A stretch of DNA of 64,000 nucleotides, taken from positions 1,532 to 65,531 of the forward strand of contig CAWBBW010000046.1 of the NCBI GenBank assembly GCA_963787135.1. Direction: 5' to 3'. Source of the DNA: an uncultured Alphaproteobacteria bacterium. Its GTDB lineage: Bacteria > Pseudomonadota > Alphaproteobacteria > Rhizobiales > Beijerinckiaceae. A program made the translations under genes and the position numbers. Shown one piece after another: positions 3,146 to 18,467 of this stretch (positions within the stretch are counted from its first letter, which is position 1; each line of letters opens with the position of its first letter). Below the pieces are notes generated by a model. It made no database searches and was not told where the DNA came from. It saw nothing but the letters and a program-made list of their open reading frames with translations.

Positions 3146-3159
3146 TGGCGGAGACGGAG
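3146..3159 (+). repeat. att core repeat (distal end of the tRNA-Ser island)
   Basis: TGGCGGAGACGGAG is identical to 18374-18387, the last 14 nt of tRNA-Ser; lies 153 bp upstream of the integrase. Confidence 0.9.
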
Positions 3160-3280
3160 ACCGCCTAACCCCTGTCCAGCATTGTGTACCGCTGTCTTGT
3201 AAGACACTGTAAATACAGGCGTTTAATCCACCACTTGTCCACAGCAGTCTATTGACGTCGCCCCGCAGCCATGATTTAAG

Positions 3281-3300
3281 TTGGGGCAGAAGTTAGGGCA
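3281..3300 (+). promoter_or_regulatory. Paired integrase arm-type sites
   Basis: TTGGGGCA (3281) and TTAGGGCA (3293) 12 bp apart; the same pair occurs at 18299/18311 and, inverted, at 9418/9430. Confidence 0.65.
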
Positions 3301-3312
3301 AAGGCGGCGATC

Positions 3313-4533
3313 ATGGCTATCCGGCAACGCAAGCAGAACCTACTGACAGCGCGCGAACTCGCGAGCGCGAAGAAGCCGGGGCGCTATTCCGACGGGAACG
3401 GCCTCTATCTCGTGGTTCGACCGGGCGGCTCAAAGCAGTGGGCCTTCATCTACCGGCGCGGGGGCAAGCTGCGCGAAATGGGCTTGGGCTCGACGCTGAA
3501 AGGCGTGACGCTGGCAAAGGCGCGCGAACTACGGGACGAGGCGCGGGCGGCGCTAGCGTACGGCTCCGACCCGCTCGATACTCGACGCGAAGCCGAGACG
3601 ACCATCCCGACGTTCGGCGCCTACGCGCTCGCGCTCGTCGATCGCATCGAGGAGGGCTTTTCCAATCCGAAGCATCGCCAGCAGTGGCGCAATACCCTCA
3701 CGGAGTACGCAGCGCGGATTTGGAGCAAGCAGATCGACCAAGTGGACACAGCCTGCGTCTTGGCCTGTCTCGCACCGATTTGGCAGACGAAGCCCGAAAC
3801 CGCGTCACGTGTGCGCGGCCGGATCGAGCGCGTGCTCAATTCCGCGAAGGCAGAGGGCTATCGAACTGGTGAGAACCCGGCCGCATGGCGCGGGCATCTG
3901 GATGCGACGCTACCGAAGCCGAGGAAGCTCACCAGGGGCCATCATGCCGCCCTGCCCTACGACGACATGCCCGCGTTCATGGCCGAGCTTCGCCGCCGCC
4001 CGGCGCTTGCAGCGCTCGCGCTCGAACTGACGGTTCTGACAGCGACGCGCACGAGCGAAGTGCTGAATGCCGAGTGGCCCGAGTTCGACCTCGACGCGGG
4101 CTTGTGGACGATCCCGGCCGCGAGGATGAAGGCCCGCAAGGAGCACCGCGTCGCTCTGTCCGCTCGCGCGCTCGCCATCGTCAAGGAGATCGCCGCCGCT
4201 CGAACCTCGAAATTCGTGTTTCCCGGCCAGAAGCCCGGCAAGCCGCTTTCCAACATGTCGATGCTGATGTTGCTTGAGCGCATGGGTCGCGGGGCGCTGA
4301 CCGCTCACGGTTTCCGATCGTCATTCTCAGATTGGGCCTCCGAAGTCAGCCCGTTCCCGTCCGAGCTTCGCGAGAGCGTTCTCGCCCACACGATCGGCAA
4401 CAAAGCCGAAGCCGCCTACCGTCGCGGCGATGCGCTCGAAAAGCGCCGGGCGATGATGGAGGCATGGTCGCAATGGTGCGAGCCACGCGCGCCTGCCGAC
4501 AACGTGACGGTGTTCCGCACCTTGAGCGCATAG
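3313..4533 (+). CDS. Tyrosine integrase, P4/IntS-like with N-terminal arm-binding domain
   Basis: 406 aa; N-terminal YSDGNGLYLVV; catalytic R (ATRTSE), HGFR, LAH and AAYRR tyrosine. Confidence 0.96.
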   Translation: MAIRQRKQNLLTARELASAKKPGRYSDGNGLYLVVRPGGSKQWAFIYRRGGKLREMGLGSTLKGVTLAKARELRDEARAALAYGSDPLDTRREAETTIPTFGAYALALVDRIEEGFSNPKHRQQWRNTLTEYAARIWSKQIDQVDTACVLACLAPIWQTKPETASRVRGRIERVLNSAKAEGYRTGENPAAWRGHLDATLPKPRKLTRGHHAALPYDDMPAFMAELRRRPALAALALELTVLTATRTSEVLNAEWPEFDLDAGLWTIPAARMKARKEHRVALSARALAIVKEIAAARTSKFVFPGQKPGKPLSNMSMLMLLERMGRGALTAHGFRSSFSDWASEVSPFPSELRESVLAHTIGNKAEAAYRRGDALEKRRAMMEAWSQWCEPRAPADNVTVFRTLSA

Positions 4534-4634
4534 ACGACGCAGAGACGGGCGGGGATAGGCCGGCCAGCCGACAAGCCGAGACGCACCCTCGGCTTCCCCG
4601 CTCTCCTTTCGGTGCAAACGCAGGTGCGCGCGAC

Positions 4635-5234
4635 ATGGAAAGCCTTCCCTACATCACCGTCTATGAGGCGGTACGGCTCATCGTTGCAATGTTGCCGGGC
4701 GGCGAGCCGTTCCCGCCGACCCTGACGGACGAATGGATCAGGGGCGGATATGCGATGGAGGAGCCCGAAGGATCAAAACTTGTCGCGATCTATCGCGAGG
4801 CCGTCGACCTATTGAAACGCGCCGTCAGATCGCCGGACGTGCGGATCACTGGCGTATCGGCCAGCAGACGCGCTGACGGGCGCCGGGAGATCAGGGACGA
4901 GGAGCGGGGATTGAGGCTCGAAATGCGGTGGGGCCTATTCAGAGGAGACGCGACCATCGCCCCCGCGTTCCTCGACCCGCTCATATGCGCGGACGCCCTG
5001 AAGCGAGAGATTACGGACCTTCTCGACCCGCCGCGCTTTGGTAGCAATGCGTACAAGCAGCGGGCCGTTGATCAGCAACTCACCCGATATGCAGCGGCGC
5101 TGGACGACATGGGACCCGAGGAAGCGGTCCGCGTCATCACCAAGCGCGTCGCCCGCGAACACAAGGGCTTGTCCGTTGGCCGATCAATGATCATCGAGCG
5201 CCTCGCTGATCTCAAAAAGCGGAGCGCTGACTAG
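4635..5234 (+). CDS. Hypothetical protein
   Basis: ATG at 4635 in the 4332..5234 frame; 199 aa between integrase and xis-like gene. Confidence 0.6.
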   Translation: MESLPYITVYEAVRLIVAMLPGGEPFPPTLTDEWIRGGYAMEEPEGSKLVAIYREAVDLLKRAVRSPDVRITGVSASRRADGRREIRDEERGLRLEMRWGLFRGDATIAPAFLDPLICADALKREITDLLDPPRFGSNAYKQRAVDQQLTRYAAALDDMGPEEAVRVITKRVAREHKGLSVGRSMIIERLADLKKRSAD

Positions 5235-5244
5235 CCGCGCAAAC

Positions 5245-5269
5245 TCGGCAAAAGTCGGCAAAAGTCGGC
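5245..5269 (+). repeat. 10-bp tandem repeat (TCGGCAAAAG x2.5)
   Basis: tcggcaaaag tcggcaaaag tcggc in the intergenic region upstream of the xis-like gene. Confidence 0.8.
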
Positions 5270-5329: not shown

Positions 5330-5518
5330 GTGCAGCCCCAAGTCAATCCCCCGAAAGCGCGTCGCGTTTTAGACGCCTGCGCCGCGATCGGCATTTCCCG
5401 AGCGAAACTCTACCGCCTCCACCAGCACGGCAAGGTCAAATTCACCAAAATCGGCGGAAGGACGCTGATTTCCGAAGCTGAACTCGATCGCCTAGTGCGC
5501 GAGGGCGAGGAGGCGTGA
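5330..5518 (+). CDS. Excisionase/AlpA-like helix-turn-helix protein
   Basis: 62 aa; DACAAIGISRAKLYRL...KIGGRTLI pattern; AGGAAG ribosome-binding site. Confidence 0.85.
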   Translation: MQPQVNPPKARRVLDACAAIGISRAKLYRLHQHGKVKFTKIGGRTLISEAELDRLVREGEEA

Positions 5519-6456
5519 CACCCGAGGGGGCGTCCGGAGCCGCGCTTGATTGCGAGCGCGACCCCGGAGCTTCTGATCATCGGTCGGGCGGCCGGTGCGA
5601 AGCTACGCCTACAGCAGCCATAGCGCGACAGCACCGCACCATGTGTGACTGCGCGCTCGCCTATGCCCGGCTCGGCATGGCCGTCTTTCCCGTCTGGCCC
5701 GGCGAGAGCAAAAATCCACTCACCGCTCACGGTTTCAAGAACGCGTCGACTGACGAAGCGACCATCCGCGCGTGGTGGAAGCGATGGCCCTTTGCCGAGA
5801 TCGCATGGGCCGTGTCGCATGAGTTCGTTGTCGTCGACCTTGACGAAAAGCACGGCCACCACGGCCTCGACGATTTCCTCGTGCGCGAGGGCGTCCATCC
5901 CTTCGACGTCGACACGCCCATTGCCACCAGCCCGAGCGGCGGCGCGCATCTGTACTTCGCGACCTGCGGCGAGAAGTTCCAGAACAAGACCAACATCGCG
6001 GGGACGGGGATCGACCTTCGCACGATCGGCGGCTACGTCGTCACGCCCGCGTCGAACAACGGCCGCAAGTGGCTGAAGACCCTCGAATGGCCGGTTCTCC
6101 CGGTTCCCGCATGGGTTCCGCGCGCGTCGGTTTCCGAGCCCCATGAGGTCGGGGAAGCCTCCGAGTTCAAGGGCACCACGTCCTACTCGACGGCGGCGCT
6201 CCGGATGGCGGTGCGATCCATCCGCTCAGCCCCCTGCGGGTCGCAGGAAGCCACGCTGAACCGCGAATGCTTCTGCATCGGATCGCTCGTCGGGGCAGGG
6301 CAACTCGACGCCGAAACGGCGCTCAAGGCCCTCCTGTCCGCCGCGGAGGCAATGGTCGCCCATACCTCACCTTGGGGAGACCTTACACCGAAAGTCGCCC
6401 GTATTTTCAAGCAGGGCAGGGCGAAGCCGCGCAAGCTCAAGGAACAGCAGTCGTGA
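5515..6456 (+). CDS. Bifunctional DNA primase/polymerase (Prim-Pol)
   Basis: LAYARLGMAVFP, VVDLDEK, SPSGGAHLYF, GIDLRTIGGYVV motifs; GTGA overlap with upstream gene (start could instead be 5641). Confidence 0.9.
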   Translation: MTPEGASGAALDCERDPGASDHRSGGRCEATPTAAIARQHRTMCDCALAYARLGMAVFPVWPGESKNPLTAHGFKNASTDEATIRAWWKRWPFAEIAWAVSHEFVVVDLDEKHGHHGLDDFLVREGVHPFDVDTPIATSPSGGAHLYFATCGEKFQNKTNIAGTGIDLRTIGGYVVTPASNNGRKWLKTLEWPVLPVPAWVPRASVSEPHEVGEASEFKGTTSYSTAALRMAVRSIRSAPCGSQEATLNRECFCIGSLVGAGQLDAETALKALLSAAEAMVAHTSPWGDLTPKVARIFKQGRAKPRKLKEQQS

Positions 6457-7964
6457 ACGCCATGTCTTCTGCCCCAAAGGTTCTGTACCCGCATCAGCAG
6501 CGCGCGCTCGACGAGATCAAGCAAGCAATCGCGGACGGCAAGAAACGGATCATAGTTCAGGCACCGACCGGCTTCGGCAAGACGCTGACCGCTGCGTGGT
6601 TGATCCGCGAATACATCGAAACAGGCGGCCGTATCATTTTCACGGTGCCGTTTCTGTCGCTGATCAAGCAGACCGTAGAGGCGCTATGGGCGGAAGGGTT
6701 TCGAGGCTGCGTCGGCGTGATCCAGGGGAAACACCGTCTCACCAACCCCATGATGCCGATACAGGTTTGCTCTGTGGAGACGCTTCGGCGACGGGACATC
6801 CCCCGCGCCGCGCTTGTCGTCGTCGACGAGGCGCACCGTCAGTTCGAGTTCGTGCAAGACGAGTGGATGGCCGATCCGGAGTGGGCGAACACGCCGTTCA
6901 TCGGGTTGTCGGCGACGCCGTGGAGCGTCGGGCTCGGGAAACACTGGAAAGACTTGATCATCGCCTCGACGACGCGGGAGTTAATCGACCTCAAGTTTCT
7001 GTCGGATTTCGTCGTCTATGCGCCAAGTCAGCCCGACCTGACCGGCATCAAGACCATCGCCGGAGACTACCACGAGGGCCAACTCGCCAAGAGGATCGAC
7101 CAGCCGAAGCTAGTCGGCGACGTGATCGAGACATGGATCAAGCGCGGCGAGAACCGCCCGACGCTCTGCTACGGCATCAACCGCGCCCACGCGGAACACC
7201 TTCAACAAAGGTTCGTCGAGCGCGGTATCGCCGCCGAATACATGGACGGCTTCACCGAGCGTGATGATCGTGAACGCACATTCGACAGGTTTCGATCCGG
7301 CGAAACGAAGATCATCTGCAACGTAGGCGTGCTTACGACTGGCGTAGACCTGCCGTTGACCTCATGCATTATTGACGCAAGGCCGACGAAATCGGAAAGG
7401 CTCTATGTCCAGACGATTGGGCGTGGCTTGAGGACTTCGCCGGGCAAAGATAAGTGCATCGTCCTCGATCACGGCGGAAACGCCTTACGCCTCGGGCTGG
7501 TAACCGATATCCACTACGACAAGCTGGACGACGGGAAACACGGCGCCGCCGGGGATGCGCCTGAGCCTCCGGAGCGAGGCATCCCGTTGCCTCGTGCTTG
7601 CGAGAAATGCGCGGCCGTCCTGCCGGCGAAGTCGATCACGTGCACCGAATGCGGACATGTCAGGGAGGCGAAATCACAGGTCGTCCACGCGGACGGCGAA
7701 CTCGTCGAATACGGATCGGGCGAGCATGAGGCATGGGTTGCGACCATCGCCGACCAGACCGCCTTCTATTGCGAGTTGATGTGGATCGTCGGCGATCGTG
7801 GACACAAGGAGGGATGGGCGGCTCACAAGTTCAAGGAGCGGTTCGGCCATTTCCCCCCGTGGGGCTGGCGCAGCCTTCCGTCCCGCGAGCCGAGCCTTGC
7901 CACGAAGAACTGGATCAGGTCGCGCAATATCGCCTGGGTAAAGGGGAGGGCGGCTCGTGGCTAA
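6453..7964 (+). CDS. Superfamily 2 DEAD/DEAH-type helicase with C-terminal zinc ribbon
   Basis: APTGFGKT, VDEAH, GLSATP, QTIGRGLR; CEKC...CTEC; GTGA coupling at 6453. Confidence 0.92.
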   Translation: MNAMSSAPKVLYPHQQRALDEIKQAIADGKKRIIVQAPTGFGKTLTAAWLIREYIETGGRIIFTVPFLSLIKQTVEALWAEGFRGCVGVIQGKHRLTNPMMPIQVCSVETLRRRDIPRAALVVVDEAHRQFEFVQDEWMADPEWANTPFIGLSATPWSVGLGKHWKDLIIASTTRELIDLKFLSDFVVYAPSQPDLTGIKTIAGDYHEGQLAKRIDQPKLVGDVIETWIKRGENRPTLCYGINRAHAEHLQQRFVERGIAAEYMDGFTERDDRERTFDRFRSGETKIICNVGVLTTGVDLPLTSCIIDARPTKSERLYVQTIGRGLRTSPGKDKCIVLDHGGNALRLGLVTDIHYDKLDDGKHGAAGDAPEPPERGIPLPRACEKCAAVLPAKSITCTECGHVREAKSQVVHADGELVEYGSGEHEAWVATIADQTAFYCELMWIVGDRGHKEGWAAHKFKERFGHFPPWGWRSLPSREPSLATKNWIRSRNIAWVKGRAARG

Positions 7965-8397
7965 GGGCATGAACGGCGGGACAGACCGCTTCTTCAAGCT
8001 GCACCACTACATGCTCAAGAGCGAGGAGTGGCAGGCGATGTCCGCCGGCGCGAGCCGTGTCTACATCCAACTTGGTTCTCGCTACAACGGGAGCAACAAC
8101 GGGACGCTGGCGATGTCCGCGCGGGACGCCGCTAAAGAGTGCCGGCTCAACAAGGACACGGCGGCGAACGCCTTCAAGGAGCTTATCGAGCGCGGTTTCA
8201 TCGTGGAGACGCGCCACGGGAGCCTGAGCCGCAAGACCCGCATCGCCAGCGAGTGGAGGCTGACAGCATTTCAGTGCGACCTGACCGGCGCACCCGCGTC
8301 GAACCTGTTCATGGAGCGGGGCGCACAAGCGCGTGACAGCCGCATGGCGCGAGCCCGGCCGCAGGCAAAGCTGCACGTGGTTCAGGCAGCCGAATAA
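7957..8397 (+). CDS. Winged-helix protein, putative replication initiator
   Basis: SARDAAKECRLNKDTAANAFKELIERGFI helix-turn-helix; directly followed by iteron-like repeats. Confidence 0.7.
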   Translation: MAKGMNGGTDRFFKLHHYMLKSEEWQAMSAGASRVYIQLGSRYNGSNNGTLAMSARDAAKECRLNKDTAANAFKELIERGFIVETRHGSLSRKTRIASEWRLTAFQCDLTGAPASNLFMERGAQARDSRMARARPQAKLHVVQAAE

Positions 8398-8425
8398 CAC
8401 AAATTAGTGGCGTCAAATTCCTGGG

Positions 8426-8547
8426 CCTGTCCGAAACGAAGGACAGTCCTGTCCGAAACGAGGGACAGTCCTGTCCGGTTTTAGGGGACAGCCTGTCCTA
8501 AACGAGGGACAGTCGAGGGGGTTCGCCTGTCCGGTTTTAGGGGACAC
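8426..8547 (+). repeat. Five 22-bp iteron-like repeats (putative origin)
   Basis: Units at 8426, 8448, 8470, 8492 and 8526, each CCTGTCC-N8/9-GGACA(G). Confidence 0.9.
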
Positions 8548-8949
8548 ATATAGATGTCTACCATCTCCCCCCAAGGGAGAGGGGTCTATTCTTAACCCCG
8601 CCGAGCCCAGCCAGCCGACGCCGGACCCGGACGAACCGAAGCCCAGCGGAGCCCAGGGCGATGGTCGCTCTTGACGACGTCGCCGTCGCACTGACCGGCG
8701 AGCCGTCGTGCTGATAGGACGTTGCAGGCCAGCGCGGTATCTTGATACCACACGCGCACGCGCGAGCGCCCTGGGCTGACAGGGAACACGTGTCCTATCC
8801 GCGCGCCGTCCGGCCTCCGAACATTTCGCGCGGCGCTGTCAGATCGCCGCGGTCAGCGATTTCCTGGCAGCGCTGCCCCCGTTGACGTGTGGTAGACTTC
8901 CGGTGCGAAAGTTCTGCCGATCAGACCTTGACCTCTTTGGGGCTCCGTC

Positions 8950-9240
8950 ATGAAGGCGATGATGGCTGCGGCGGTTGGTCTGTTGCTCGCTGCGACGCCT
9001 GCGGGTGCCATGACCGGGCAAGAGTTCCTACAAGTGTACGACGACAGTCCCCTGGTGGAGGAGCCTGCCGTTATGAAGCCACTCGTGCGCCAGTTTGTCA
9101 GCGAGGGCTACCATAACGTTCCCGGCTGGGCTTACCTTGGCGAAATGACGCACGCGCTGATCCTCGAAAAGGGTTACCGCGACAAAGACATTGCCGAGAT
9201 CGCGAGGGAGGCGGCGATCGCAAATGGCATGTCCAAATGA
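8950..9240 (+). CDS. Secreted hypothetical protein
   Basis: 96 aa; signal peptide MKAMMAAAVGLLLAATPAGA. Confidence 0.65.
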   Translation: MKAMMAAAVGLLLAATPAGAMTGQEFLQVYDDSPLVEEPAVMKPLVRQFVSEGYHNVPGWAYLGEMTHALILEKGYRDKDIAEIAREAAIANGMSK

Positions 9241-9348
9241 GGATGACCTTGGCGTCTGTGTCGTCGACCGTCACATCGCGATCATCTTGGCGATGGCCGG
9301 TAGCTGCAAGGCCGGCTGCTGGCTGCCGGCTCGCATAGGCGTGGCGGA

Positions 9349-9437
9349 CACCGCCTCCGCCGACACATATGCCTAACATATTGAAATAACTGGACTACGC
9401 GTGCAAAAACAGCGACTTGCCCCAACGTTTGCCCCAA
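9349..9437 (-). repeat. Inverted internal copy of the tRNA-proximal att arm (arm sites, IHF-like site, degenerate core)
   Basis: Reverse complement aligns without gaps to 18299-18387: 24/28 identity over the arm repeats, IHF-like site at the same offset, 11/14 core match. Confidence 0.75.
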
Positions 9438-9885
9438 TCAGAAGGCGATGATCGCCTCGACATGCCGCTCCGACGCCCGCCCAGATGACCAGGGGAACGC
9501 CGCGAAGATGGTCGCCTCGATATGCTGGCCGCTCGTCACCCTCCGTGCTCGCCGGCCCTCCCCGCCGCCAGCCGCCACGCCCCGATCGCAGAAATCGCAC
9601 CCTCCCACCGGCCTTCAATCGGCAGCTATAACGACCAGCGGGAGTAAAATTGAAGGTCTGGCGCGGCCCTCGTCCTCTGCCCGCGAGCTAGACCACTTCC
9701 AAACACCCCCCTGTCAGATTTTTTCATCAGCCTCAGAAACCTTTCGTACAATGCTGTCGGAATAAAATGGCCGCTAGGCGTGTTCACAATTGGGTGCAGA
9801 GCTTCGCCCGCGCTTGGCGGCCCCTCGGCGGCCCGGATTTCGGCATTTCCATCCGGGCCGCCTTGCGCGCGTTGCGCGCTGAAAC

Positions 9886-10730: not shown

Positions 10731-10732
10731 CA

Positions 10733-11367: not shown

Positions 11368-11369
11368 CA

Positions 11370-11543: not shown

Positions 11544-11598
11544 CCCGGCCGGCGTCTCTGACGGGCGCCGCAACCGATAAACCGCAAGGGAACAGATC

Positions 11599-11814: not shown

Positions 11815-11815
11815 A

Positions 11816-11968
11816 ATGATCCTGAACGCCCCGGCCATCCCTTCCTATGTGCGGCTCCTGCCGCCGCCGCCGCCGCCGTTGCTGTTCGAGATCGTGCGGC
11901 CGCGCAAGACGCGAACCGGCAATCTGATCGGCATCGTGAAGGCTCCCATGACAGGGGACCGCCGGTGA
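11816..11968 (+). CDS. 50-aa proline-rich protein (not in the supplied ORF track)
   Basis: MILNAPAIPSYVRLLPPPPPPLLFEIVRPRK...; starts 2 nt after the previous stop and overlaps the next start (GTGA). Confidence 0.5.
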   Translation: MILNAPAIPSYVRLLPPPPPPLLFEIVRPRKTRTGNLIGIVKAPMTGDRR

Positions 11969-12483
11969 CAGCGCTCGACGCCAAGGCGCTCGAAATGGCC
12001 CGCCTTATGGCCGAAGGCTCGGAGTTCGACGAAACTGTTGACGGGAAGCCCGTTGCGGCGGGCTGGCCGATGACGCTGGCGCAAGCGGCTCGGCTTCTCG
12101 GCGTGCCGCTGCGCAAGGCCCGCGAGTTGGCCGATAGCCCGATCTTTGCGGCCGAATTGGACCGGCTGCTCAAGGCTCGCCGCGCGAGCGAGAAGGCGCG
12201 CAACTTGAACGTCGCGATCGAGATCAGGGACGATCGGGGCGAGGGCCTCGCGGCCGACCGCACCGTGCGGCTCAAGGCAATCTCCACGATCGAAGGCGTC
12301 GAGAACAAGGGCGTAACCGTCAACGTCAACTCGAACAACCAAACGCTGAACGTCCAGCCGGGATACATCATCCGGTTGCCAGCAAAGCGCGACGCCGCGC
12401 TCGAGGCTCCCCCCATGCGCACGATCGACCATGAGGCCGCTGACATGGTGGCCGTGTCAGCCCGTGACAGCGGGGAAATCTGA
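11965..12483 (+). CDS. Terminase-small-subunit-like protein
   Basis: HTH-like N-terminus, helical middle and C-terminal VTVNVNSNNQ strand, the general layout of TerS proteins. Confidence 0.5.
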   Translation: MTALDAKALEMARLMAEGSEFDETVDGKPVAAGWPMTLAQAARLLGVPLRKARELADSPIFAAELDRLLKARRASEKARNLNVAIEIRDDRGEGLAADRTVRLKAISTIEGVENKGVTVNVNSNNQTLNVQPGYIIRLPAKRDAALEAPPMRTIDHEAADMVAVSARDSGEI

Positions 12484-12485
12484 CA

Positions 12486-12995
12486 GTGGCTCCCGCGAAG
12501 CTTCCCACCTGCCCGCAATGCGGCAAGCGGTTCGCGCCGTGGCGCGCAAAAGCGTACTGCTCTGAGCCCTGTCGAAAGAAGGCCCAGAACGTCCGTCTTG
12601 GATACGTTAGGCGGGATGAGGCTACCCATGTAGCCGCCTCGCCAAATCCTGAAACTTTAGCCCAGCAAAACCGGGCGTCTCCGAGGACGTTTAGGCGGGA
12701 TGAGGGGTTCGAGTGGACGGCCTGCAACGAGGTCACGCGAAAACTCACGCGCGCCGGATCTCCGAACGCGGTCGGCTGGGCGATGCTCATCGATGGTCAC
12801 GGATGGTTCGGGCGCATCGGGAGGGACTTCTCATTCGGCCCGGCGACGCAGTCTCGCGCCAAGTCGGCTGTCGAGGCGCGCTTGCTGGGCGAGCCGTTCG
12901 ACAAGGTCGACGATGAGCGCTCATGGTCGGGAACGTGCTGGCGCCTGCTATCCGGGTCCGAGCCACACACTGACGCCGTCCGCGAGGCGGCCTAA
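12486..12995 (+). CDS. Zinc-finger hypothetical protein
   Basis: CPQCGKRF...YCSEPCRKKA four-cysteine motif. Confidence 0.7.
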   Translation: MAPAKLPTCPQCGKRFAPWRAKAYCSEPCRKKAQNVRLGYVRRDEATHVAASPNPETLAQQNRASPRTFRRDEGFEWTACNEVTRKLTRAGSPNAVGWAMLIDGHGWFGRIGRDFSFGPATQSRAKSAVEARLLGEPFDKVDDERSWSGTCWRLLSGSEPHTDAVREAA

Positions 12996-13015
12996 CCCAC
13001 GGAGTACCTGCCCCG

Positions 13016-13309
13016 ATGACTGACCAGCCCGACTACACGGCGACCCTTCCCGCAGAATTTGCGCATCTGAAAATCGACGAGAAAGACCCCCGCTATGTCG
13101 CCGCGAAGGAGTTCGCCCGCGCCAACAATTTCACGCAGGAAACCTTCACACAGCTTCTCGGCGTCGAGGCCCGTGGGATGTTGGCGAAGCAAGCCCCAGC
13201 GGCTCCCGCAGCGCCGCCCCGGCCGGCTGTCCCCACGAAGCCGTACAGCCAACTTTCTTTCGCGGAGAAGCTCGCGATCGGCGAGGCGCGCAAGAGCGGC
13301 GGCCGGTAG
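13016..13309 (+). CDS. Hypothetical protein, capsid-scaffold-like
   Basis: DYTATLPAEF...IDEKDP...FARANNFTQETFTQLL, Pro/Ala linker and short charged C-terminal helix. Confidence 0.45.
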   Translation: MTDQPDYTATLPAEFAHLKIDEKDPRYVAAKEFARANNFTQETFTQLLGVEARGMLAKQAPAAPAAPPRPAVPTKPYSQLSFAEKLAIGEARKSGGR

Positions 13310-13366: not shown

Positions 13367-14215
13367 CTATGCATGGCATTCGTCGTCTATGCAGTTTCCC
13401 TCACGATGGTGAGTGGAACCGAAGTGAAGCACTCCCGGGGTTGGGGGAGAGCCTTGGGTGTTCGGGATGAAGCCATAGGGGTCGCCCGTGATGTGGATGA
13501 CCCAGCAGAATTTAGTAATATGCTTCTTAGTCCTTGGGAAAACGTCATTGTATTCGACCCATCCCCACAGATAAATGAACCGTCGGCCGTTTTGGCACTC
13601 CACGATATCTTGGGGAGAGATAAAGCGACCAAGTGGCGCAAGCCCTCCTTGGAGTTCAAATTTGGGGGGAATAGTTCCAGTGATTACGTTGGCCTCTACT
13701 GCGGTGAAATCGAACCCATCCGGAAGTCGGCTGTCGAGGATTTCGCAATTAACGTAGGTCCTCATTCCTCTTGTTGGGGTGTCTCCACTATTGCGCAGCA
13801 CGGGTCTGAACTGCCAAGCATACACACCGGTGATTTCGTCCTTGGTCCAAGTCTGGTTGAAGGTTGTAACGAAAACAAAGGCTTTCTTGTCAGCTATCAG
13901 CGCTTCCCGGGTGAGTTGAGCTTGACGACTTGTTGCCATCCACAATGTTCCGGTGAATGCGGCGATGAGGAGTGTAGCGATGGCGGTGATGGCCGCATTC
14001 TCACGACGTATGTATCTAGCGGTGCACCGGGAAGCGATGACGCGGCGGACGATGAATTGGGACAGACGTTCCGGATGCTCTGGGGCGCTTGTTTCTGCAT
14101 ATTGTTTGGCTTGGCACTCTTGAAATTTAGATGAAAATTCTCTGGCCCCAATCAATAGCGTTGTCGCCACGACAAATAGCGCAAACGCTATCAGAACTTC
14201 ATATTTGTTCAGCAT
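13367..14215 (-). CDS. Membrane-anchored hypothetical cargo protein
   Basis: ATG at 14215; two hydrophobic segments followed by a soluble domain; more AT-rich than flanks. Confidence 0.7.
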   Translation of the reverse strand: MLNKYEVLIAFALFVVATTLLIGAREFSSKFQECQAKQYAETSAPEHPERLSQFIVRRVIASRCTARYIRRENAAITAIATLLIAAFTGTLWMATSRQAQLTREALIADKKAFVFVTTFNQTWTKDEITGVYAWQFRPVLRNSGDTPTRGMRTYVNCEILDSRLPDGFDFTAVEANVITGTIPPKFELQGGLAPLGRFISPQDIVECQNGRRFIYLWGWVEYNDVFPRTKKHITKFCWVIHITGDPYGFIPNTQGSPPTPGVLHFGSTHHREGNCIDDECHA

Positions 14216-14554
14216 CCTTTGATCGCCGTCCCAAAGATATCTGCGTTCTCGCGGGTTGTTGTAGCGGAATTGGAACTCAGCGACCATCCGCCTATCGTAG
14301 GAAGCCCCTGTGGTCAGCCACTCGACCAGGGCGCGGCGGATGACACGCGCGCGATAGTCCCTCCGGGTCGCAGCCGCGTCGATCGCAGCCGTCGGGTCAG
14401 GCGGCTGCGCGTCATAGTATATCAGACAGCGCCGCTCTGGCATCCCTCGCCACCAGCCAGTCTGTCACGCTCAGCCGCTCGGACACGGCGGATCAGGATT
14501 GCGAGAGCCACAAAAATGGGCCAATCTACACCCGGTTCCGGATAAGGGGGTTCT

Positions 14555-15154
14555 ATGATGAAGCGCATTCTGGCGGGCGCGACAGCGCTTGCGTTCGTCC
14601 TCGGTGCGTCGGCGGTCGAGGCCAGCGTGGTTCCCGGCTCGATCTTCGGCGGACCAGCGACAGACTTCGAGGGGTCCGACGCCTATGGCAATGAGTGGAA
14701 TTGGGAGGTTCGGGCGATTTTGCCCGGTATGCCGGCCTTCTGGGTGGACGGGACAGAAACAGTGGGCTTCCCCTACACGGGGAGCCCCAACGCGACAGAT
14801 TTCGAGATCGTGTTCCCGGGTCTGGCCGTCGTCGGAAGCGCGATCCAAGCTGGGTCATTCTGCGCAGAAGTGAATGTCACCCCGTTCGGCGCCGACTGCG
14901 ATTATTGGAACTCCTCGATCTCGGGCGACCAAGTTACTTTCACGGCGCCGGCCGGAACGTCGCTGACTTCCGGACAGCCTTACGCCATCGAGATCGTGTT
15001 CACAAACCAATACGCCGCGGGCTCGGGCTTCCATGCGTATTTCACATCCGGCGTGCCGGAGCCGTCGACCTGGGCAATGATGGCGCTTGGCTTCGCGAGC
15101 CTCGGCTACGCGGGGTATCGCCGGGCAAAGGGGAACGCCGCCCTCGTAGCCTGA
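14555..15154 (+). CDS. PEP-CTERM sorting-domain surface protein
   Basis: Signal peptide plus C-terminal VPEPSTWAMMALGFASLGYAGYRR. Confidence 0.9.
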   Translation: MMKRILAGATALAFVLGASAVEASVVPGSIFGGPATDFEGSDAYGNEWNWEVRAILPGMPAFWVDGTETVGFPYTGSPNATDFEIVFPGLAVVGSAIQAGSFCAEVNVTPFGADCDYWNSSISGDQVTFTAPAGTSLTSGQPYAIEIVFTNQYAAGSGFHAYFTSGVPEPSTWAMMALGFASLGYAGYRRAKGNAALVA

Positions 15155-15180
15155 CAGCGCGACTAGCCCGAACGACGTGA

Positions 15181-15213
15181 AGCCCGTCGTCATAGCGGCG
15201 GGGTTTTTCTTTT
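15181..15213 (+). terminator. Rho-independent terminator
   Basis: CCCGTCGT-CATA-GCGGCGGG stem-loop followed by GTTTTTCTTTT. Confidence 0.7.
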
Positions 15214-15246
15214 GCCCCGCGCCCAAGGCCGCGATGTGTGGGCGTT

Positions 15247-15498
15247 CTAATGGAGCGGGAAAAGCCAAGCGAGAACCGTGACGACGACGGCGATGATGGC
15301 CGCGATAGCGGCGATCCAAGCGGCCATTTGTGTGTTGGCTTGGGCAGCTTTGTTGCGCAAGCGCTCTGCGTCGTCCAGTTCAGCCAACCACTGAGCGGCG
15401 GCGGGGACGAGATTTGACGGCAAGTTGCCCGGGTAGAGAATGCGAACCTTCCCGGCCCCTATCTCCTCTAGACGCCGCCGTGCTTCTTCTGGGTCCAT
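15247..15498 (-). CDS. Small protein with C-terminal transmembrane helix
   Basis: 83 aa; WIAAIAAIIAVVVTVLAWLF. Confidence 0.6.
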   Translation of the reverse strand: MDPEEARRRLEEIGAGKVRILYPGNLPSNLVPAAAQWLAELDDAERLRNKAAQANTQMAAWIAAIAAIIAVVVTVLAWLFPLH

Positions 15499-15557
15499 CG
15501 TGTCCCTCTCAGCCCACCCACCGGGACCATATGCTCATCGTCGCTGCGGTGCAGGGA

Positions 15558-16028
15558 TCATTGATAAGACGGGCTCGTGCAGTGCCAAACAGCCCCGTCG
15601 TGGTCGGAAACGCCATAAGGGGCCCCCGTCACCGAGGGAAGGTATAATTGCCCAAGGCGGGCATCAGAATAATCGCCCGAATACTCGGTCTTAGACCATC
15701 GTATCATGCCAACCTCCACTTCAATACCGGGGTTGCCGAACTGATCAGTGCTTTGCTGTTGGTCTACGTAGTAACTCAAAATCTTGTGCGCGACGGGAGC
15801 GCTACCGGGAATTTCAATTGTCACTGTTCCAGCATCAACATCTACGCTTTCCCTGTCGATCACGCGGGTTGTTCGGTTCTCACATTCAACTGAAAAGCTA
15901 TCAGCGGCCTTTAGGGTATTAGTTCGCTGCTGCCGTGGACTGTCGTATCGGAAGAATTTTGCCTGAGCGGCGCTCGAAAGCAATTGGAGCAACGCGAAAG
16001 CCACTAGCAGTTTCATTATTCCTGTCAT
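15558..16028 (-). CDS. Secreted hypothetical protein
   Basis: Signal peptide MKLLVAFALLQLLSSAAQA; AT-richer cargo. Confidence 0.65.
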   Translation of the reverse strand: MTGIMKLLVAFALLQLLSSAAQAKFFRYDSPRQQRTNTLKAADSFSVECENRTTRVIDRESVDVDAGTVTIEIPGSAPVAHKILSYYVDQQQSTDQFGNPGIEVEVGMIRWSKTEYSGDYSDARLGQLYLPSVTGAPYGVSDHDGAVWHCTSPSYQ

Positions 16029-16139
16029 TGTCTCAAAGCCTTCAGGACACCTGTCGCGCCGGCAAAGGGCTAATCTTATATCACGAAAAGCGCGCGTGCG
16101 AAACTCTCGGGTTAGCCCACCAAACGCCGCCACCACGGC

Positions 16140-16360
16140 CTAGCGCGCTCTGGCCGTCTCGATCTCGACGAGCCGCAGGATCGCGTCGCTGTAGCTCTCG
16201 CCGGGGCACGCATGGTCGCGAGCCGATCGACCATCGCATCCTCAAGCCAAATCCAGCGTTCGCCCTTCGTGTCGACCTCTGGCTCGAAGCCCACCGAACC
16301 AAGCGGGAGCGTGGCGGAGATCGCATCGAACGCGGCGGTCGTGATCGAGATGCGGATCAT
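16140..16360 (-). pseudogene. Small protein with C-terminal ribbon-helix-helix-like segment, 1-bp deletion
   Basis: Adding one base near 16207 converts MRAPARAT into MRGPGESYSDAILRLVEIE, ending at TAG 16140. Confidence 0.55.
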
Positions 16361-16389
16361 GGAGCGCTGAAATAGGAACCGCTCAAGGC

Positions 16390-17049
16390 TCACCGTTCCA
16401 ACTTTATCGCGGCGTCGATGATCGGATTGAGATGCCGGAGAGCGTTTTCGGCAAGCTCCCGCATAAGCCTCAACTGGCCCTCAATGTTATCGTAAAAGAT
16501 CGCCATTTCCCCCTTGCGGAACTCTTTCCTTGCGTACTGTACCGCTTTCTGGTCGAGGAAAGCGTCGAAGTACCTCGTGTGGAAGTCGAGTTGAGCAACA
16601 TCTCCCGACCCCGCATACAGGTAGTGCAAATCAGACAGCACGCTTTTGATGTCGGCAACTACGTAGAGCTTCAATTGCTCGGTAAGGTCCCGGTTTGGCG
16701 GTGGCATCGTCGGTTGGTTGTGCTTACGCAGGTGGTCGAACAGTTCCGACGTTGCCTGAACCCGTGCCTTAACCTCGGCCAGCCAGCCCGATAGCCTCAA
16801 AGCGACAACCTCCGCGCGGTTGGCCCGATCGCGCTCTCTCTGCTCGTCTGCCTTTCGTTCCGATTTCTGCGCGGCTTCGATTTCGCGGTCAGCTGATCTG
16901 ATCGTCACCCCGATTGTTCCCAGCGCCGCCAGCACCGCGAGGACACCCGCAATTAGGGTCTGCCAGTCATAGAGAAACTGATCCACTCTCGAGTGCCCTA
17001 TCCAGACCTCCATCGGCATGGCTAGCCACTCCCCAGCGGCGGCCACCAC
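16390..17049 (-). CDS. Membrane-anchored hypothetical cargo protein
   Basis: 219-aa ORF; WQTLIAGVLAVLAALGTIGV transmembrane segment; start uncertain. Confidence 0.65.
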   Translation of the reverse strand: MVAAAGEWLAMPMEVWIGHSRVDQFLYDWQTLIAGVLAVLAALGTIGVTIRSADREIEAAQKSERKADEQRERDRANRAEVVALRLSGWLAEVKARVQATSELFDHLRKHNQPTMPPPNRDLTEQLKLYVVADIKSVLSDLHYLYAGSGDVAQLDFHTRYFDAFLDQKAVQYARKEFRKGEMAIFYDNIEGQLRLMRELAENALRHLNPIIDAAIKLER

Positions 17050-17108
17050 GGCACCTTGGCTGTTTCCGCGGGGCGCTTCTCGCCTTTAGGTCCGGTGGGC
17101 ATAGCACG

Positions 17109-17342
17109 CTAATCCTTGCAGTCGGCCGACGTGACACGAACCAGCGGCTGCGAGCCTTTTCGATCGACTTCTCCTTGGTCATACTTCCGCGATGCAGCAT
17201 CCCAAATTGCAGCCCACCCACAATCCCGAATTGCTTCGTGTGACGCGGACACTGTCACGCGCTCATCTCCGGTACCCGTAGCGAGGACGTTCTGTCCGGT
17301 TAGATTATCCAAAGGCTCTTGCCCTGCGTTGTTTAACGGCAT
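17109..17342 (-). CDS. Small hypothetical protein
   Basis: ATG at 17342; 77 aa of natural-looking composition. Confidence 0.45.
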   Translation of the reverse strand: MPLNNAGQEPLDNLTGQNVLATGTGDERVTVSASHEAIRDCGWAAIWDAASRKYDQGEVDRKGSQPLVRVTSADCKD

Positions 17343-17650
17343 TGTCCAAAGCCTCCTGCTTCCCGGTAAGCATACCACGGGACGTCCGGGCGCCGCGAGG
17401 CGCGTGAGCCGGTCTGGCGATCTTCGCCAATGCACAAGAAAAAAGCGCGCGGGGATGTTTGGGATGGAAAATCGCGTGGGAGCAAGGCGGCCCAGACGCG
17501 GGTGTGTCTGGACCGCCAAGGGGCACTCGACCCACGGATTGGCTGTTCGCTAACCCGCCGTGGGGCCCGGCCCGCCTTATGCTTAATTCGCCAACAAAAG
17601 TTCTGTCATGAAAAATCGCGCGTGAAAGTGTGAGGGAGGGATGTTAGAAA

Positions 17651-17935
17651 TCAATCTTGGATTTTTGCTATTTCTTGGTCGGCCGTTCTGCGAGAAACCC
17701 ATGCGCAGACGAGCGCCAAGCCGATAATCCACAGAGGGAGGACAGCTTCCACTACTTCTAGGGAGCTTGGCCGAGACCCACCGGCTAGCCAAACATCGAT
17801 GGGGTGAAAATATTCCGTCGCCTTAGGTAGGGACCAGAGCGGGACAAGAACCCCAGTCAAGCTGAGGCCGACGGAAAGATTGTTAAACCAGAGCGCCCGG
17901 AGCTTGATACGTTCGTTGACAGCCGCTTTGCCCAT
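17651..17935 (-). CDS. Small two-TM membrane protein
   Basis: GAGGAGGG ribosome-binding site before ATG 17935; two hydrophobic segments. Confidence 0.6.
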   Translation of the reverse strand: MGKAAVNERIKLRALWFNNLSVGLSLTGVLVPLWSLPKATEYFHPIDVWLAGGSRPSSLEVVEAVLPLWIIGLALVCAWVSRRTADQEIAKIQD

Positions 17936-18298
17936 TGGCCCCTCCTCGCCGCGCAGGCCGACGACAGGCCCAAATTTCAGAAGGGTCAACAAAATATTGG
18001 TGAACATCGCACGGAGGCCGTCAAGATCGTCGGCCCGGCCCGGCGCGCTTTCGCTGCCTCACGCGGACCCGAAGTGCGCGCAGGAATTGCGCCGCCCCTA
18101 CCAGGAGGGCCGCCAAGTCCCTCATCAAGTCGCCAAGCGTGTGCCAATCCATCTCAACCTCCAGTTGGTTGGGGATGGAAGCTTAAGATCGGAGCATTAA
18201 CGAAAAATTATCTTATTTGTGGTTGAGCCCAAAAATCTCGAACGAAAAAATCGCGCCTGAGGTTGTGGAGAGATCGCGGCCTCGCTAGCGCGCTCAAA

Positions 18299-18362
18299 TT
18301 AGGGCAAATGTTGGGGCAAGCCGTTGCCTGTCTAGAATTAGCGGTGCAATATCAATCACTTA
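18299..18362 (+). promoter_or_regulatory. Integrase arm sites and IHF-type site at the tRNA-proximal end
   Basis: TTAGGGCA 18299, TTGGGGCA 18311; TATCAATCACTTA 18350-18362 matches the IHF consensus WATCAANNNNTTR. Confidence 0.65.
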
Positions 18363-18373
18363 TGTGCTGGCGC

Positions 18374-18467
18374 TGGCGGAGACGGAGGGATTCGAACCCT
18401 CGATAGGGCTTTACAACCCTATAACGGTTTAGCAAACCGCCGCCTTCAGCCTCTCGGCCACGTCTCC
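18374..18467 (-). tRNA. tRNA-Ser (anticodon GCT)
   Basis: GGAGACG/CGTCTCC acceptor stem, GCGGT-TTGCTAA-ACCGT anticodon arm, long variable arm, GGTTCGAATCC T-arm, encoded CCA. Confidence 0.97.

What the first reader, a model, noticed from the sequence alone, without database searches (positions are those of the whole stretch)
3146..18387. Candidate new family of alphaproteobacterial phage satellite
Seen: 15.2 kb bounded by att repeats, with the order integrase - xis-like - Prim-Pol - SF2 helicase - wHTH - iterons - tightly coupled operon of small genes - unrelated cargo. No terminase large subunit, portal, major capsid, tail, lysis or conjugation gene is recognisable. Established: PICIs and P4-like satellites have this size and logic. 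Inference: a helper-dependent satellite. Its replication module is atypical (Prim-Pol plus an SF2 DEAH helicase with Zn ribbon, rather than the SF3/D5 or DnaB-type helicases usual in PICI/P4), and most described satellites come from Gammaproteobacteria and Bacillota.
Basis: partly seen in the sequence, partly recalled or inferred. Interest (0 to 1): 0.72.

Follow-up and report, generated by a model that had tools for sequence, protein, structure and literature searches.

The report
Phage satellite with terminase and mini-scaffold
A 15.2-kb mobile island at a serine-tRNA gene can integrate and copy itself but builds no virus particle. It carries a small-terminase gene and a cut-down copy of a phage head-scaffolding gene, so it is most likely a parasite of a helper phage, of a known general kind (PICI-like) but from an undescribed family.

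Summary
A 14-nt copy of the tRNA-Ser(GCT) 3' end (3146-3159 and 18374-18387) bounds a 15.24-kb element. A same-species contig (L006) is 100% and 99.4% identical in the flanks, and identity collapses at the left repeat.

The gene order is as reported, with one extra gene after the integrase. No large terminase, portal, capsid, tail, lysis or conjugation gene was found.

The small-gene operon is a phage-hijack kit:
- **11965-12483** belongs to an unnamed small-terminase (TerS) family. In real phages its homologue sits before TerL-portal-scaffold-capsid. In nine genomic contexts fetched it sits in small elements (five with an integrase in view) that lack those genes.
- **13016-13309** is a mini-scaffold. 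It keeps the central domain and C-terminal tail of the T7-type scaffolding protein of those phages (hhalign 97.9%).

Both genes are under purifying selection. Replication modules are swapped freely among relatives, so the Prim-Pol plus SF2 helicase pair does not define the family.

A third, inverted integrase-binding site upstream of the operon is conserved and unexplained.

Verdict: a PICI-like satellite, a new variant of a known kind. No helper phage is present in this assembly, and nothing has been shown experimentally.

The parts
3146..3159 (+). Integrase-proximal att core, a duplicated 14 nt of the tRNA-Ser 3' end
   Evidence: Identity to L006 collapses just inside it.
3281..3300 (+). Paired arm-type sites TTGGGGCA-N4-TTAGGGCA (P arm), 134 nt from the core
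   Evidence: 3 matches in 64 kb against 0 expected. The same site is present in L006.
3313..4533 (+). Tyrosine integrase (DUF4102 / P4-type arm-binding N-terminus)
   Evidence: three Pfam domains; phrog_1, 2.7e-46. dN/dS against L006 is 0.18.
4548..4614 (+). Marginal match to the Rfam int-alpA RNA (RF02996)
   Evidence: 35.5 bits against a gathering score of 35.8. Not found in L006, L010, L011 or L025. Weak.
4635..5234 (+). Conserved post-integrase protein of unknown function (199 aa)
   Evidence: Homologues in the same slot in L030 (51%), L031 (65%) and L010 (27%). No match in any family library.
5330..5518 (+). AlpA / excisionase-like HTH_17 regulator
   Evidence: PF12728, 3e-8; phrog_66.
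5641..6456 (+). Prim-Pol primase-polymerase
   Evidence: PF09250, 4.6e-29.
6462..7964 (+). SF2 DEAD/ResIII helicase with a C-terminal CxxC...CxxC
   Evidence: (phrog_16, 3.7e-85). Only 43% identical in L006, so this module has been swapped.
7957..8397 (+). wHTH putative replication initiator
   Evidence: HTH_36; phrog_186/270/345, DnaD-like and O-like initiators. Replaced in L006 together with the iterons.
8426..8546 (.). Five 22-nt dyad iterons (CCTGTCC-N7/8-GGACAG), the putative origin
   Evidence: families D2 and D10. L006 has different repeats at this position.
8605..9493 (+). Highly conserved block, with identical stretches within about 9150-9365 versus L006. It includes a small ORF (about 9010-9240) with weak coding signal.
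   Evidence: dN/dS of the ORF is 0.84.
9343..9437 (-). Mid-site: an inverted paralogue of the P' arm. It has paired TTGGGGCA sites, an IHF-like site and a core-like GGCGGAGGCGG at the same 76-nt spacing as the tRNA-proximal end.
   Evidence: Conserved in L006 and L031. An analogous inverted pair with a different motif is present in L011.
10083..10730 (+). s1: protein whose N-terminal HTH resembles the TerS-family N-domain, followed by a Pro/Ala-rich linker and a C-terminal domain
   Evidence: hhalign 69%, E 4.6e-5. Homologues in L031 (81%) and L025.
10733..11047 (+). s2: conserved small protein of unknown function
   Evidence: Homologues in L006, L007, L030 and L031. dN/dS 0.51.
Homologues lie upstream of TerS in L012-type phages.
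   Evidence: L012, L027-L029. dN/dS 0.23. No Pfam or PHROGs match.
11304..11543 (+). s4: small conserved ORF; the true start is probably later
   Evidence: Homologues in L006 (82%) and L031 (74%).
11599..11814 (+). s5: conserved 71-aa protein of unknown function
   Evidence: Homologues in L006, L025 and L031. dN/dS 0.18.
11965..12483 (+). s7: small terminase (TerS) homologue of an unnamed family
   Evidence: dN/dS 0.29.
12486..12995 (+). s8: Zn-ribbon protein in a variable slot. L006 has a NUMOD3 protein here; L031 has an 86% homologue.
   Evidence: (the N-terminus resembles part of phrog_1271, an HNH family).
13016..13309 (+). s9: mini-scaffold, made of the central domain plus C-terminal tail of a T7-type (PF05396) phage scaffolding protein joined by a Pro/Ala-rich linker
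   Evidence: (97.9%, E 4.2e-13). dN/dS 0.32.
13367..18007 (.). Variable low-GC cargo: a 358-aa membrane protein (-), a PEP-CTERM protein at 14555-15154 (+), and four unknown minus-strand genes
   Evidence: Only the PEP-CTERM gene is shared with L006.
18299..18387 (+). tRNA-proximal att arm: paired arm-type sites at 18299-18318, IHF consensus TATCAATCACTTA at 18350-18362, core at 18374-18387
18374..18467 (-). tRNA-Ser(GCT), the integration target

Best explanation
The stretch 3146-18387 is an integrated, helper-dependent phage satellite of the PICI type.

**Shown**
- It sits in the 3' end of tRNA-Ser(GCT), between 14-nt direct repeats.
- It carries an intact tyrosine integrase whose paired arm-type sites and IHF-like site flank both ends.
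- It has an AlpA-like regulator.
- It has its own replicon: Prim-Pol, an SF2 helicase, a wHTH initiator and five iterons.
- It has no virion, lysis or conjugation genes.
- Its operon encodes a small-terminase (TerS) homologue and a truncated scaffolding-protein homologue. The full-length relatives of both lie in the head-gene cluster of L012-type temperate phages (TerS-TerL-portal-T7-type scaffold-capsid).

**Inferred**
- On infection or induction of such a helper, AlpA and integrase excise the element.
- The initiator fires the iteron origin and the element replicates on its own.
- Its TerS recruits the helper's large terminase to a pac site on the satellite.
- The mini-scaffold keeps the scaffold's C-terminal tail, which in other scaffolds is the part that binds coat protein. 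It would compete with the helper scaffold, as CpmB of SaPI1 does. Heads would then be built too small for the roughly 46-kb helper but large enough for 15 kb.
- The other conserved small proteins (s1 with a TerS-like HTH, s2, s3, s5) probably tune helper late-gene expression or packaging.
For: **Ends and mobility**
- Ends and boundaries.
- The chromosomal flanks are 99.4-100% identical to L006, while the element interior is only 79-92% identical or replaced. The element therefore turns over faster than its host.

**Integration, regulation and replication genes**
-.

**No virion or transfer genes**
-.

**TerS**
- Weak PHROGs match to phrog_5334.
- A family of more than 120 unnamed proteins.
- The AF2 N-terminal 110 residues match 2ao9 and the NV1 small terminase, and BFVD proteins named 'terminase small subunit'.
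- In the phages L012 and L027-L029 the homologue lies upstream of TerL-portal-scaffold-capsid: just before TerL in L027-L029, about 1.5 kb upstream in L012. L013 carries the homologue with portal, scaffold and capsid.
- In L004, L006, L007, L009, L010, L011, L025, L026 and L031 the homologue lies in elements without those genes.

**Mini-scaffold**
- BLASTP match to the L012 scaffold.
- That scaffold is Pfam PF05396.
- Profile-profile comparison gives 97.9%, E 4.2e-13, for the central domain, and 89.5%, E 2e-6, for the C-terminal tail.
- An HMM search of 1.84 billion proteins returned 58 mini clusters (140 aa or less) and 57 clusters of 180-345 aa, many of these long ones matched in two stretches.

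**Selection**
- Purifying selection on s3, s5, s7 and s9, with dN/dS of 0.18-0.32.

**Size and precedent**
- 15.2 kb against the 46.3-kb L012 contig is a ratio of 0.33.
- CpmB precedent: PMC5644958.
- PICI core list: PMC10085698.
Against: - No helper has been identified. The window's own assembly (96% complete) has no L012-type TerL, portal, scaffold or capsid.
- Its only prophage-like region, on contig C21, is of another type and looks frameshifted.
- The concatenated operon proteins found nothing in 50,697 deposited phage genomes.
- No relative of s9 or of the helicase was found in IMG/VR, so there is no sign of packaged copies.
- The tool for searching sequencing runs was closed, so excision circles could not be sought.
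- The Foldseek E-values for TerS are weak (0.03 and worse). The C-terminal third of the model is unconfident.
- The s9 model gave no fold match.
- The order s3, then TerS, then scaffold fragment mirrors the phage gene order. Descent from a prophage by deletion is therefore real history, and present-day activity is not proven.
- The pac site, the induction signal and the capsid-size effect are all inference.
Confidence: 0.78

Rival explanations
1. It is a decayed prophage: a remnant of an L012-type temperate phage that lost TerL, portal, most of the scaffold gene, the capsid gene, tails and lysis genes by deletion, and is now inert cargo at the tRNA.
For: The order s3-like regulator, then TerS, then scaffold fragment matches the phage order. 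No helper is present in the genome. Sister elements carry frameshifts in s1 (L006) and in TerS (L031).
Against: - The same reduced gene set recurs in diverged elements at three different tRNA targets. These have different integrases, different replication modules and different gene orders (L007, L025, L030, L031).
- The mini-scaffold is a discrete family of 58 clusters. They share a start, a linker and a tail, which is not the pattern of random truncations.
- dN/dS is 0.18-0.32.
- The integrase, att sites, origin and replicon are intact.
- The replicon is not that of the phage.
Confidence: 0.1
2. It is a self-replicating integrative island (an integrative plasmid-like element or IME) that moves by conjugation, mobilisation or vesicles. 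Its TerS-like and scaffold-like proteins would serve as anti-phage decoys, giving abortive interference with packaging and assembly, rather than as means of transfer.
For: It has an autonomous replicon with iterons. Relatives carry defence-type cargo: MmeI restriction-modification and T5orf172 in L004, SocA_Panacea in L031. Satellite interference and defence overlap in known systems (PMC9618062).
Against: No relaxase, coupling protein or oriT-associated gene was found in any library. No PADLOC hit was found for any gene of this element. A TerS plus a coat-binding mini-scaffold plus a genome about one third of the helper's size is the classic piracy kit.
Confidence: 0.1
3. It exploits a gene transfer agent rather than a phage.
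For: The host is an alphaproteobacterium, a class in which gene transfer agents are common. The C21 region has a TerL with an ILAGRGAGKTRAGAE motif, which I recall as Terminase_6-like (not run against Pfam), and an HK97-type portal.
Against: No PF05065 capsid was found in the genome, although the control genomes did give hits. The relatives of the hijack genes are in T7-scaffold-type phages, not in clusters resembling a gene transfer agent.
Confidence: 0.02

Closest known systems
PICIs of Gram-negative bacteria (EcCICFT073 type), as modelled in SatelliteFinder (de Sousa et al. 2023, PMC10085698)
   Same: It shares all of the following: about 15 kb at a fixed chromosomal site; integrase followed by an AlpA-type regulator; a primase-helicase replicon with an iteron origin; a TerS-type packaging gene; a capsid-morphogenesis gene; variable accessory cargo; no virion or lysis genes. 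From my memory of the Gram-negative PICI literature, its single gene orientation also matches; I did not check this in a paper.
   Different: - The TerS and capsid-morphogenesis genes belong to families that no Pfam, PHROGs or NCBIfam model names.
- The replicon is Prim-Pol plus an SF2 helicase plus a separate wHTH initiator.
- The host is a soil or peat-type member of the Hyphomicrobiales.
- The putative helper has T7-type head-scaffold genes.
- There is an extra inverted integrase-binding site in mid-element.
- It has not been shown to be phage-inducible.
SaPI1 CpmB, the competing internal scaffold (Dearborn et al. 2017, PMC5644958)
   Same: It is a small helical satellite protein that shares the helper scaffold's C-terminal end. 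In SaPI1 this redirects assembly to small capsids that fit a genome about one third the size of the helper's.
   Different: CpmB shares only a short RIIK motif with the 80alpha scaffold. Here the mini-protein is a clear homologue of two separate segments of the scaffold, the central domain and the tail, joined by a Pro/Ala-rich linker. The scaffold is of the T7 gp9 (PF05396) type. No CpmA equivalent was recognised.
Marine VEIMEs (virion-encapsidated integrative mobile elements; Eppley et al. 2022, PMC9618062)
   Same: These are small tyrosine-integrase elements in Alphaproteobacteria, among other groups. They carry AlpA, primase-helicases and TerS homologues that are closest to those of co-occurring phages.
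   Different: VEIMEs were defined by being found inside virus particles. This element is known only as an integrated copy. No sequence relationship to VEIMEs was tested.
P4-like satellites
   Same: It has a P4-type (DUF4102) integrase at a tRNA gene, an AlpA/Vis-type regulator and an autonomous replicon. Its size is about one third of the helper's.
   Different: None of the library scans run here gave a match that I would assign to Psu, Delta, Sid, epsilon or the alpha primase-helicase. No P4-specific models were run. Capsid redirection would be by an internal rather than an external scaffold, and P4 has no TerS.

Membership tests
PICI (five core components of de Sousa et al. 2023, plus classical criteria) | Integrase at a specific attachment site | tested here: met
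   The same tRNA-Ser site is occupied by variants in L006 and L030.
PICI | Regulator homologous to AlpA, MerR or Stl | tested here: met
   HTH_17 (PF12728, 3e-8) and phrog_66 at 5330-5518.
PICI | Primase-replicase module with its own origin | tested here: met
   Prim-Pol, SF2 helicase, wHTH initiator-like protein and five iterons. The gene families differ from the canonical Pri-Rep. Relative L030 has Prim-Pol plus a D5_N/DUF5906 helicase.
PICI | Small terminase subunit (or the Rpp/Ppi type of packaging redirection) | tested here: met
   s7 belongs to a family that lies upstream of TerL in L012 and L027-L029 (just before it in L027-L029, about 1.5 kb upstream in L012). It also has fold matches to small terminases. 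No curated TerS profile reaches significance; only phrog_5334 at E 0.003.
PICI | Capsid-morphogenesis gene | tested here: inconclusive
   s9 is a truncated homologue of the putative helper's scaffolding protein. It is not homologous to the known Cpm, Ccm or Rcm genes, and its effect on capsids is untested.
PICI | No genes for capsid, portal, tail or lysis | tested here: met
PICI | Excision, replication and packaging induced by a helper phage | not testable with these tools
No helper is present in the assembly.
Capsid-forming PICI (cf-PICI) | Own capsid, portal, protease and head-tail connector genes | tested here: not met
   None were found.
P4-like satellite | psu-delta-sid operon, epsilon and the alpha primase-helicase | tested here: inconclusive
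   The Pfam, PHROGs and NCBIfam scans gave no match that I would assign to any of these. No P4-specific profiles were run. Only the integrase type and the AlpA-like regulator are shared.
IME / ICE (integrative mobilizable or conjugative element) | Relaxase with or without a coupling protein or type IV secretion genes | tested here: not met
   No such domain was found in any ORF of 90 aa or more.
Small terminase (TerS), applied to s7 | N-terminal HTH plus a helical oligomerisation core, encoded next to TerL in phages | tested here: met
   The AF2 model has an HTH and a long helical hairpin (pLDDT above 80 for residues 10-110) and matches 2ao9 and 7joq. Position in phages. Ring assembly and DNA binding were not tested.
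T7-type scaffolding protein (PF05396), applied to s9 | Match to the family profile over its length | tested here: not met
   s9 relatives P0122 and P0127 gave no PF05396 hit. s9 aligns only to residues 92-150 and to the last roughly 20 residues of the full-length family. It is therefore a derived fragment, not a full member.

The most novel reading that the evidence does not exclude
The mid-element site at 9343-9437 carries paired integrase arm sites, an IHF site and a core-like sequence. It is an inverted paralogue of the P' arm and lies upstream of the hijack operon. It is conserved in L006 and L031, and an analogous inverted pair with a different motif is present in L011.

The most novel reading is that this site is a working integrase/IHF-operated switch. 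It could act as an operator that ties expression of the packaging operon to the excision state. It could instead be a second recombination site that rearranges the element. On this reading, the mini-scaffold family (58 clusters) marks a broad, unrecognised clade of satellites of phages with T7-type scaffolds.
Probability: 0.2. Interest if true: 0.75.

Novelty: new variant of a known kind. Interest (0 to 1): 0.58.

Why it matters
- It adds a soil or peat-type alphaproteobacterial lineage to the phage satellites. Its two hijack genes are invisible to current satellite-finding profiles, so such elements are probably being missed.
- The mini-scaffold is an unusually clear case of how a capsid-redirecting protein can arise. 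A helper scaffolding gene lost its N-terminus and one internal domain but kept its C-terminal tail, presumed to bind coat protein. That gives a directly testable parallel to CpmB in a T7-type head system.
- Comparison of sister elements at one chromosomal site shows module-by-module replacement, covering the helicase-initiator-origin unit, the gene next to TerS, and the cargo. This is a compact natural example of satellite mosaicism.
- The conserved third integrase-binding site is a new feature that merits a bench test.

Tried and rejected
- **Deposited phages.** tblastn of the concatenated operon proteins against 50,697 phage genomes found nothing.
- **Solved structures by sequence.** A profile search of the PDB with the TerS alignment gave only noise.
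- **Mini-scaffold fold.** The AF2 model of s9 (pLDDT 68) searched with Foldseek against the PDB gave no meaningful match.
- **Viral contigs.** IMG/VR scans with the s9 profile and with the helicase gave no relatives.
- **Genome-contig scan.** The TerS profile gave only two loci, because the search pattern was strict.
- **Empty site.** The joined flanks were searched across 60 genomes of the genus. Only the tRNA side is conserved, so no empty site could be shown. The L006 comparison was used instead.
- **Helper in this genome.** No PF05065 capsid and no L012-type head genes were found. The C21 prophage-like region is of another type and is frameshifted.
- **Cargo function.** PADLOC and NCBIfam gave no hits for the cargo or the unknown operon proteins.
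- **int-alpA RNA.** The Rfam match is sub-threshold and absent from relatives, so it is not relied on.
- **Integrase-mediated inversion.** I considered whether recombination between the mid-site and an att end explains the inverted alpA-replication module of L031. I rejected this because the post-integrase gene keeps its orientation there.

Full report

Yes. ARAGORN finds tRNA-Ser(GCT) on the minus strand at 18374-18467. Its last 14 nt, read on the plus strand as TGGCGGAGACGGAG, occur exactly twice in the 64-kb window, at 3146-3159 and 18374-18387. About 0.1 matches are expected by chance.

Independent support comes from contig L006, from the same species. Its chromosomal flanks are 100% identical to the window on the left (2374 to about 3170) and 99.4% identical on the right (18274-23488). 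Identity falls to 0.69 immediately inside the left repeat. The interior is a mosaic of segments that are 79-92% identical or unrelated. The element is therefore 15.24 kb and evolves separately from its host.

**2. Anatomy**

Pfam and PHROGs give the following:
- A tyrosine integrase with an Arm-DNA-bind_3 N-terminus, 3313-4533.
- An HTH_17 / AlpA-excisionase-like protein, 5330-5518.
- Prim-Pol, 5641-6456.
- An SF2 helicase, 6462-7964 (phrog_16, 3.7e-85).
- A wHTH protein matching DnaD-like and O-like initiator PHROGs, 7957-8397.

Five 22-nt dyad iterons follow at 8426-8546.

It is conserved in the same slot in relatives L030, L031 and L010 but has no known domain.

From 10083 to 13309 nine tightly packed plus-strand ORFs follow. 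After them comes low-GC cargo (GC 0.54-0.59 against about 0.63 elsewhere), including a PEP-CTERM protein. No library reports a large terminase, portal, capsid, tail, lysis or relaxase gene. The element is single-copy in its genome.

**3. The operon is a hijack module**

*The TerS homologue, s7 (11965-12483).*
- It matches a small-terminase PHROG weakly (E 0.003).
- It has more than 120 unnamed homologues in metagenomes.
- An AlphaFold model built on 40 of them is confident for residues 10-110, showing an HTH plus a long helical hairpin.
- Its best PDB matches are 2ao9 and the NV1 small terminase 7joq. From memory, 2ao9 (a phBC6A51 prophage protein) is regarded as a small terminase.
- Most named BFVD matches are 'terminase small subunit'. 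The E-values are weak.

Gene context settles the assignment. In phage L012 the homologue lies about 1.5 kb upstream of TerL (phrog_2), which is followed by the portal (phrog_332), the scaffold and the major head protein (phrog_212). L012 is a 46-kb IMG/VR contig whose scaffold protein (P0129) a source names as from Rhizobiales bacterium GAS113. In the three prophages of genome G439 (L027-L029) the homologue lies immediately before TerL. L013 carries the homologue together with portal, scaffold and capsid.

In the nine other genomic contexts fetched, the homologue lies in a small element without those genes. These are L004, L006, L007/8, L009, L010, L011, L025, L026 and L031. Six of them show an integrase within the fetched DNA, and all carry AlpA-type and/or replication genes except L026, which I did not annotate beyond its integrase.

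*The mini-scaffold, s9 (13016-13309).*
- It matches the L012 scaffold by BLASTP.
- That scaffold is Pfam PF05396, the T7 capsid assembly protein.
- Profile-profile comparison of the s9 family with the scaffold family gives 97.9% probability, E 4.2e-13, for s9 residues 6-61 against scaffold residues 92-150.
- The C-terminal tails also correspond, for example IPGYSSMSFSQRWVAGE in a mini version against IEGYEKMSFAQRWVAGE in a full-length one. hhalign gives 89.5%, E 2e-6, over 17 columns.
- An exhaustive HMM search returned two populations: 58 clusters of 140 aa or less that match the whole profile, and 57 clusters of 180-345 aa. Many of the long ones match in two stretches, centre and tail.
- Four of ten long hits tested show PF05396 as their only Pfam hit, though below threshold.

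So s9 is a scaffold that has lost its first roughly 90-120 residues and one internal domain of about 85 residues. A Pro/Ala-rich linker replaces that internal domain, and the tail is kept.

*Other operon genes.*
- s3 has homologues upstream of TerS in the same phages.
- The N-terminus of s1 resembles the TerS N-domain (hhalign 69%).
- s2 and s5 are conserved among relatives.
- dN/dS against L006 is 0.18-0.32 for s3, s5, s7 and s9, so these are working genes.

**4. A family with interchangeable parts**

Relatives sit at tRNA-Ser(GCT) (window, L006, and L030, which is 10.5 kb between the same kind of 14-nt repeat), at tRNA-Arg(ACG) (L007) and at tRNA-Ser(GGA) (L010).

In the replication slot they carry:
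- Prim-Pol plus an SF2 helicase (window, L006).
- Prim-Pol plus a D5_N/DUF5906 helicase (L030).
- Toprim_3 plus AAA_25 (L007).
- AAA_25 fused to an HTH (L004).
- An SF2 helicase alone (L010).
- PolA (L011).

Between the window and L006, the helicase, initiator and iterons were replaced as a unit (helicase 43% identical; different repeats). The gene next to TerS was also replaced, with a NUMOD3 protein in L006. L030 has the mini-scaffold but no TerS. L025 and L007 have different gene orders. The hijack genes are what recur.

The TerS family is rare in reference genomes: 2 of 60 others in the genus and 3 of 400 others in the order.

**5. How it most likely works**

The shown and inferred steps are listed under Best explanation. 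In brief, the model is AlpA- and integrase-mediated excision, iteron-driven self-replication, redirection of the helper's large terminase by TerS, and competition by the mini-scaffold for the helper's coat protein.

The precedent for that last step is CpmB of SaPI1. CpmB shares the C-terminal coat-binding motif of the 80alpha scaffold and drives formation of small capsids (PMC5644958).

The size ratio of 15.2 to 46.3 kb, 0.33, fits the usual satellite-to-helper ratio, about 0.35 for P4/P2 and SaPI1/80alpha from my own knowledge. The 46.3 kb is a predicted prophage contig, so the ratio is approximate.

**6. Unexplained feature**

The pattern TTRGGGCA-N4-TTRGGGCA occurs three times in 64 kb, against 0 expected. 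The three places are next to the integrase start (3281-3300, plus strand), near the tRNA end (18299-18318, plus strand), and in mid-element in inverted orientation (9418-9437, minus strand).

The mid-site aligns without gaps to the tRNA-proximal arm. The alignment includes an IHF-consensus site and a core-like GGCGGAGGCGG at the same 76-nt spacing.

The mid-site is conserved in L006 and L031. L011 has an integrase only 49% identical and different arm motifs. It too has one pair next to its integrase and an inverted pair between its replication and packaging modules.

The surrounding block, 8605-9493, is the best-conserved part of the element relative to L006, with long identical stretches. I cannot tell whether this is an integrase/IHF operator for the operon, a secondary recombination site, or part of a pac region.

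**7. Comparison with known systems**

The element has all five PICI core components listed by de Sousa et al. 2023 (PMC10085698). Its TerS and capsid-morphogenesis genes belong to unnamed families.

It lacks the defining genes of cf-PICIs and of conjugative or mobilisable elements. I saw none of the P4 hijack genes, though no P4-specific models were run.

Integrase-AlpA-primase-TerS satellites have already been seen in marine Alphaproteobacteria (PMC9618062). Earlier notes of this scan describe several satellite candidates with scaffold pieces in other phyla. A literature search found no paper linking PICIs with Hyphomicrobiales genera.

I therefore rate it a new variant of a known kind.

**8. 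Weak points**

- No helper is present in the assembly, and there is no evidence of packaging.
- Structural E-values for TerS are weak.
- Some sister elements carry frameshifts, which may be assembly errors, since this and related assemblies show indel-type frameshifts elsewhere.

Noticed in passing
window 29310-35325: tRNA-Arg(ACG) at 29310-29386 is followed, 5.9 kb downstream, by a 49-nt partial copy of its 3' part (35277-35325, 90% identical). The same tRNA-Arg site is occupied in L007 by a roughly 14-kb satellite of the TerS family studied here.
   Followed up: partly
window 4548-4614 (+): Sub-threshold match to the Rfam int-alpA RNA (RF02996, 35.5 bits against a gathering score of 35.8), lying between the integrase stop and the next gene. 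It was not detected in four related elements.
   Followed up: partly
own genome, contig C21, about 50-75 kb: A prophage-like region with a TerL I take to be Terminase_6-like (from a recalled motif, not scanned), an HK97-type portal (PF04860) and tail-like genes. Many ORFs drift into Arg-rich frames, which suggests either decay or indel errors in the assembly. It is unrelated to the L012-type phages.
   Followed up: partly
L031 323-4718 versus 6429-9756: In this close relative the alpA-Prim-Pol-helicase module lies on the strand opposite to the hijack operon. The two are therefore transcribed divergently from the region holding the mid-site. In the window all these genes are co-directional.
   Followed up: no
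L030 2484-12939: A 10.5-kb variant at the same tRNA-Ser site. It has Prim-Pol plus a D5_N/DUF5906 helicase and the mini-scaffold, but no TerS, s1 or s8 homologue.
   Followed up: partly
window 14555-15154; L006 12785-13411; L004 10022-11624: PEP-CTERM secreted proteins recur as cargo immediately after the hijack genes in three elements. The host genome carries dozens of PEP-CTERM genes.
   Followed up: no
L011 382-903: A Sf6-type small terminase gene (PF20901, 2e-21) lies just outside the integrase end of another family member. It may belong to a neighbouring element.
   Followed up: no
G439 (L027, L028, L029): One genome of the order carries three copies of an L012-type prophage head module, two of them on one contig.
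   Followed up: no
window about 9150-9365: Long stretches fully identical to L006, although neighbouring modules are diverged or replaced. The region contains several GC-rich palindromes (GCCGGC, GGCCGG). It could be a pac or regulatory region, or the product of recent recombination.
   Followed up: no
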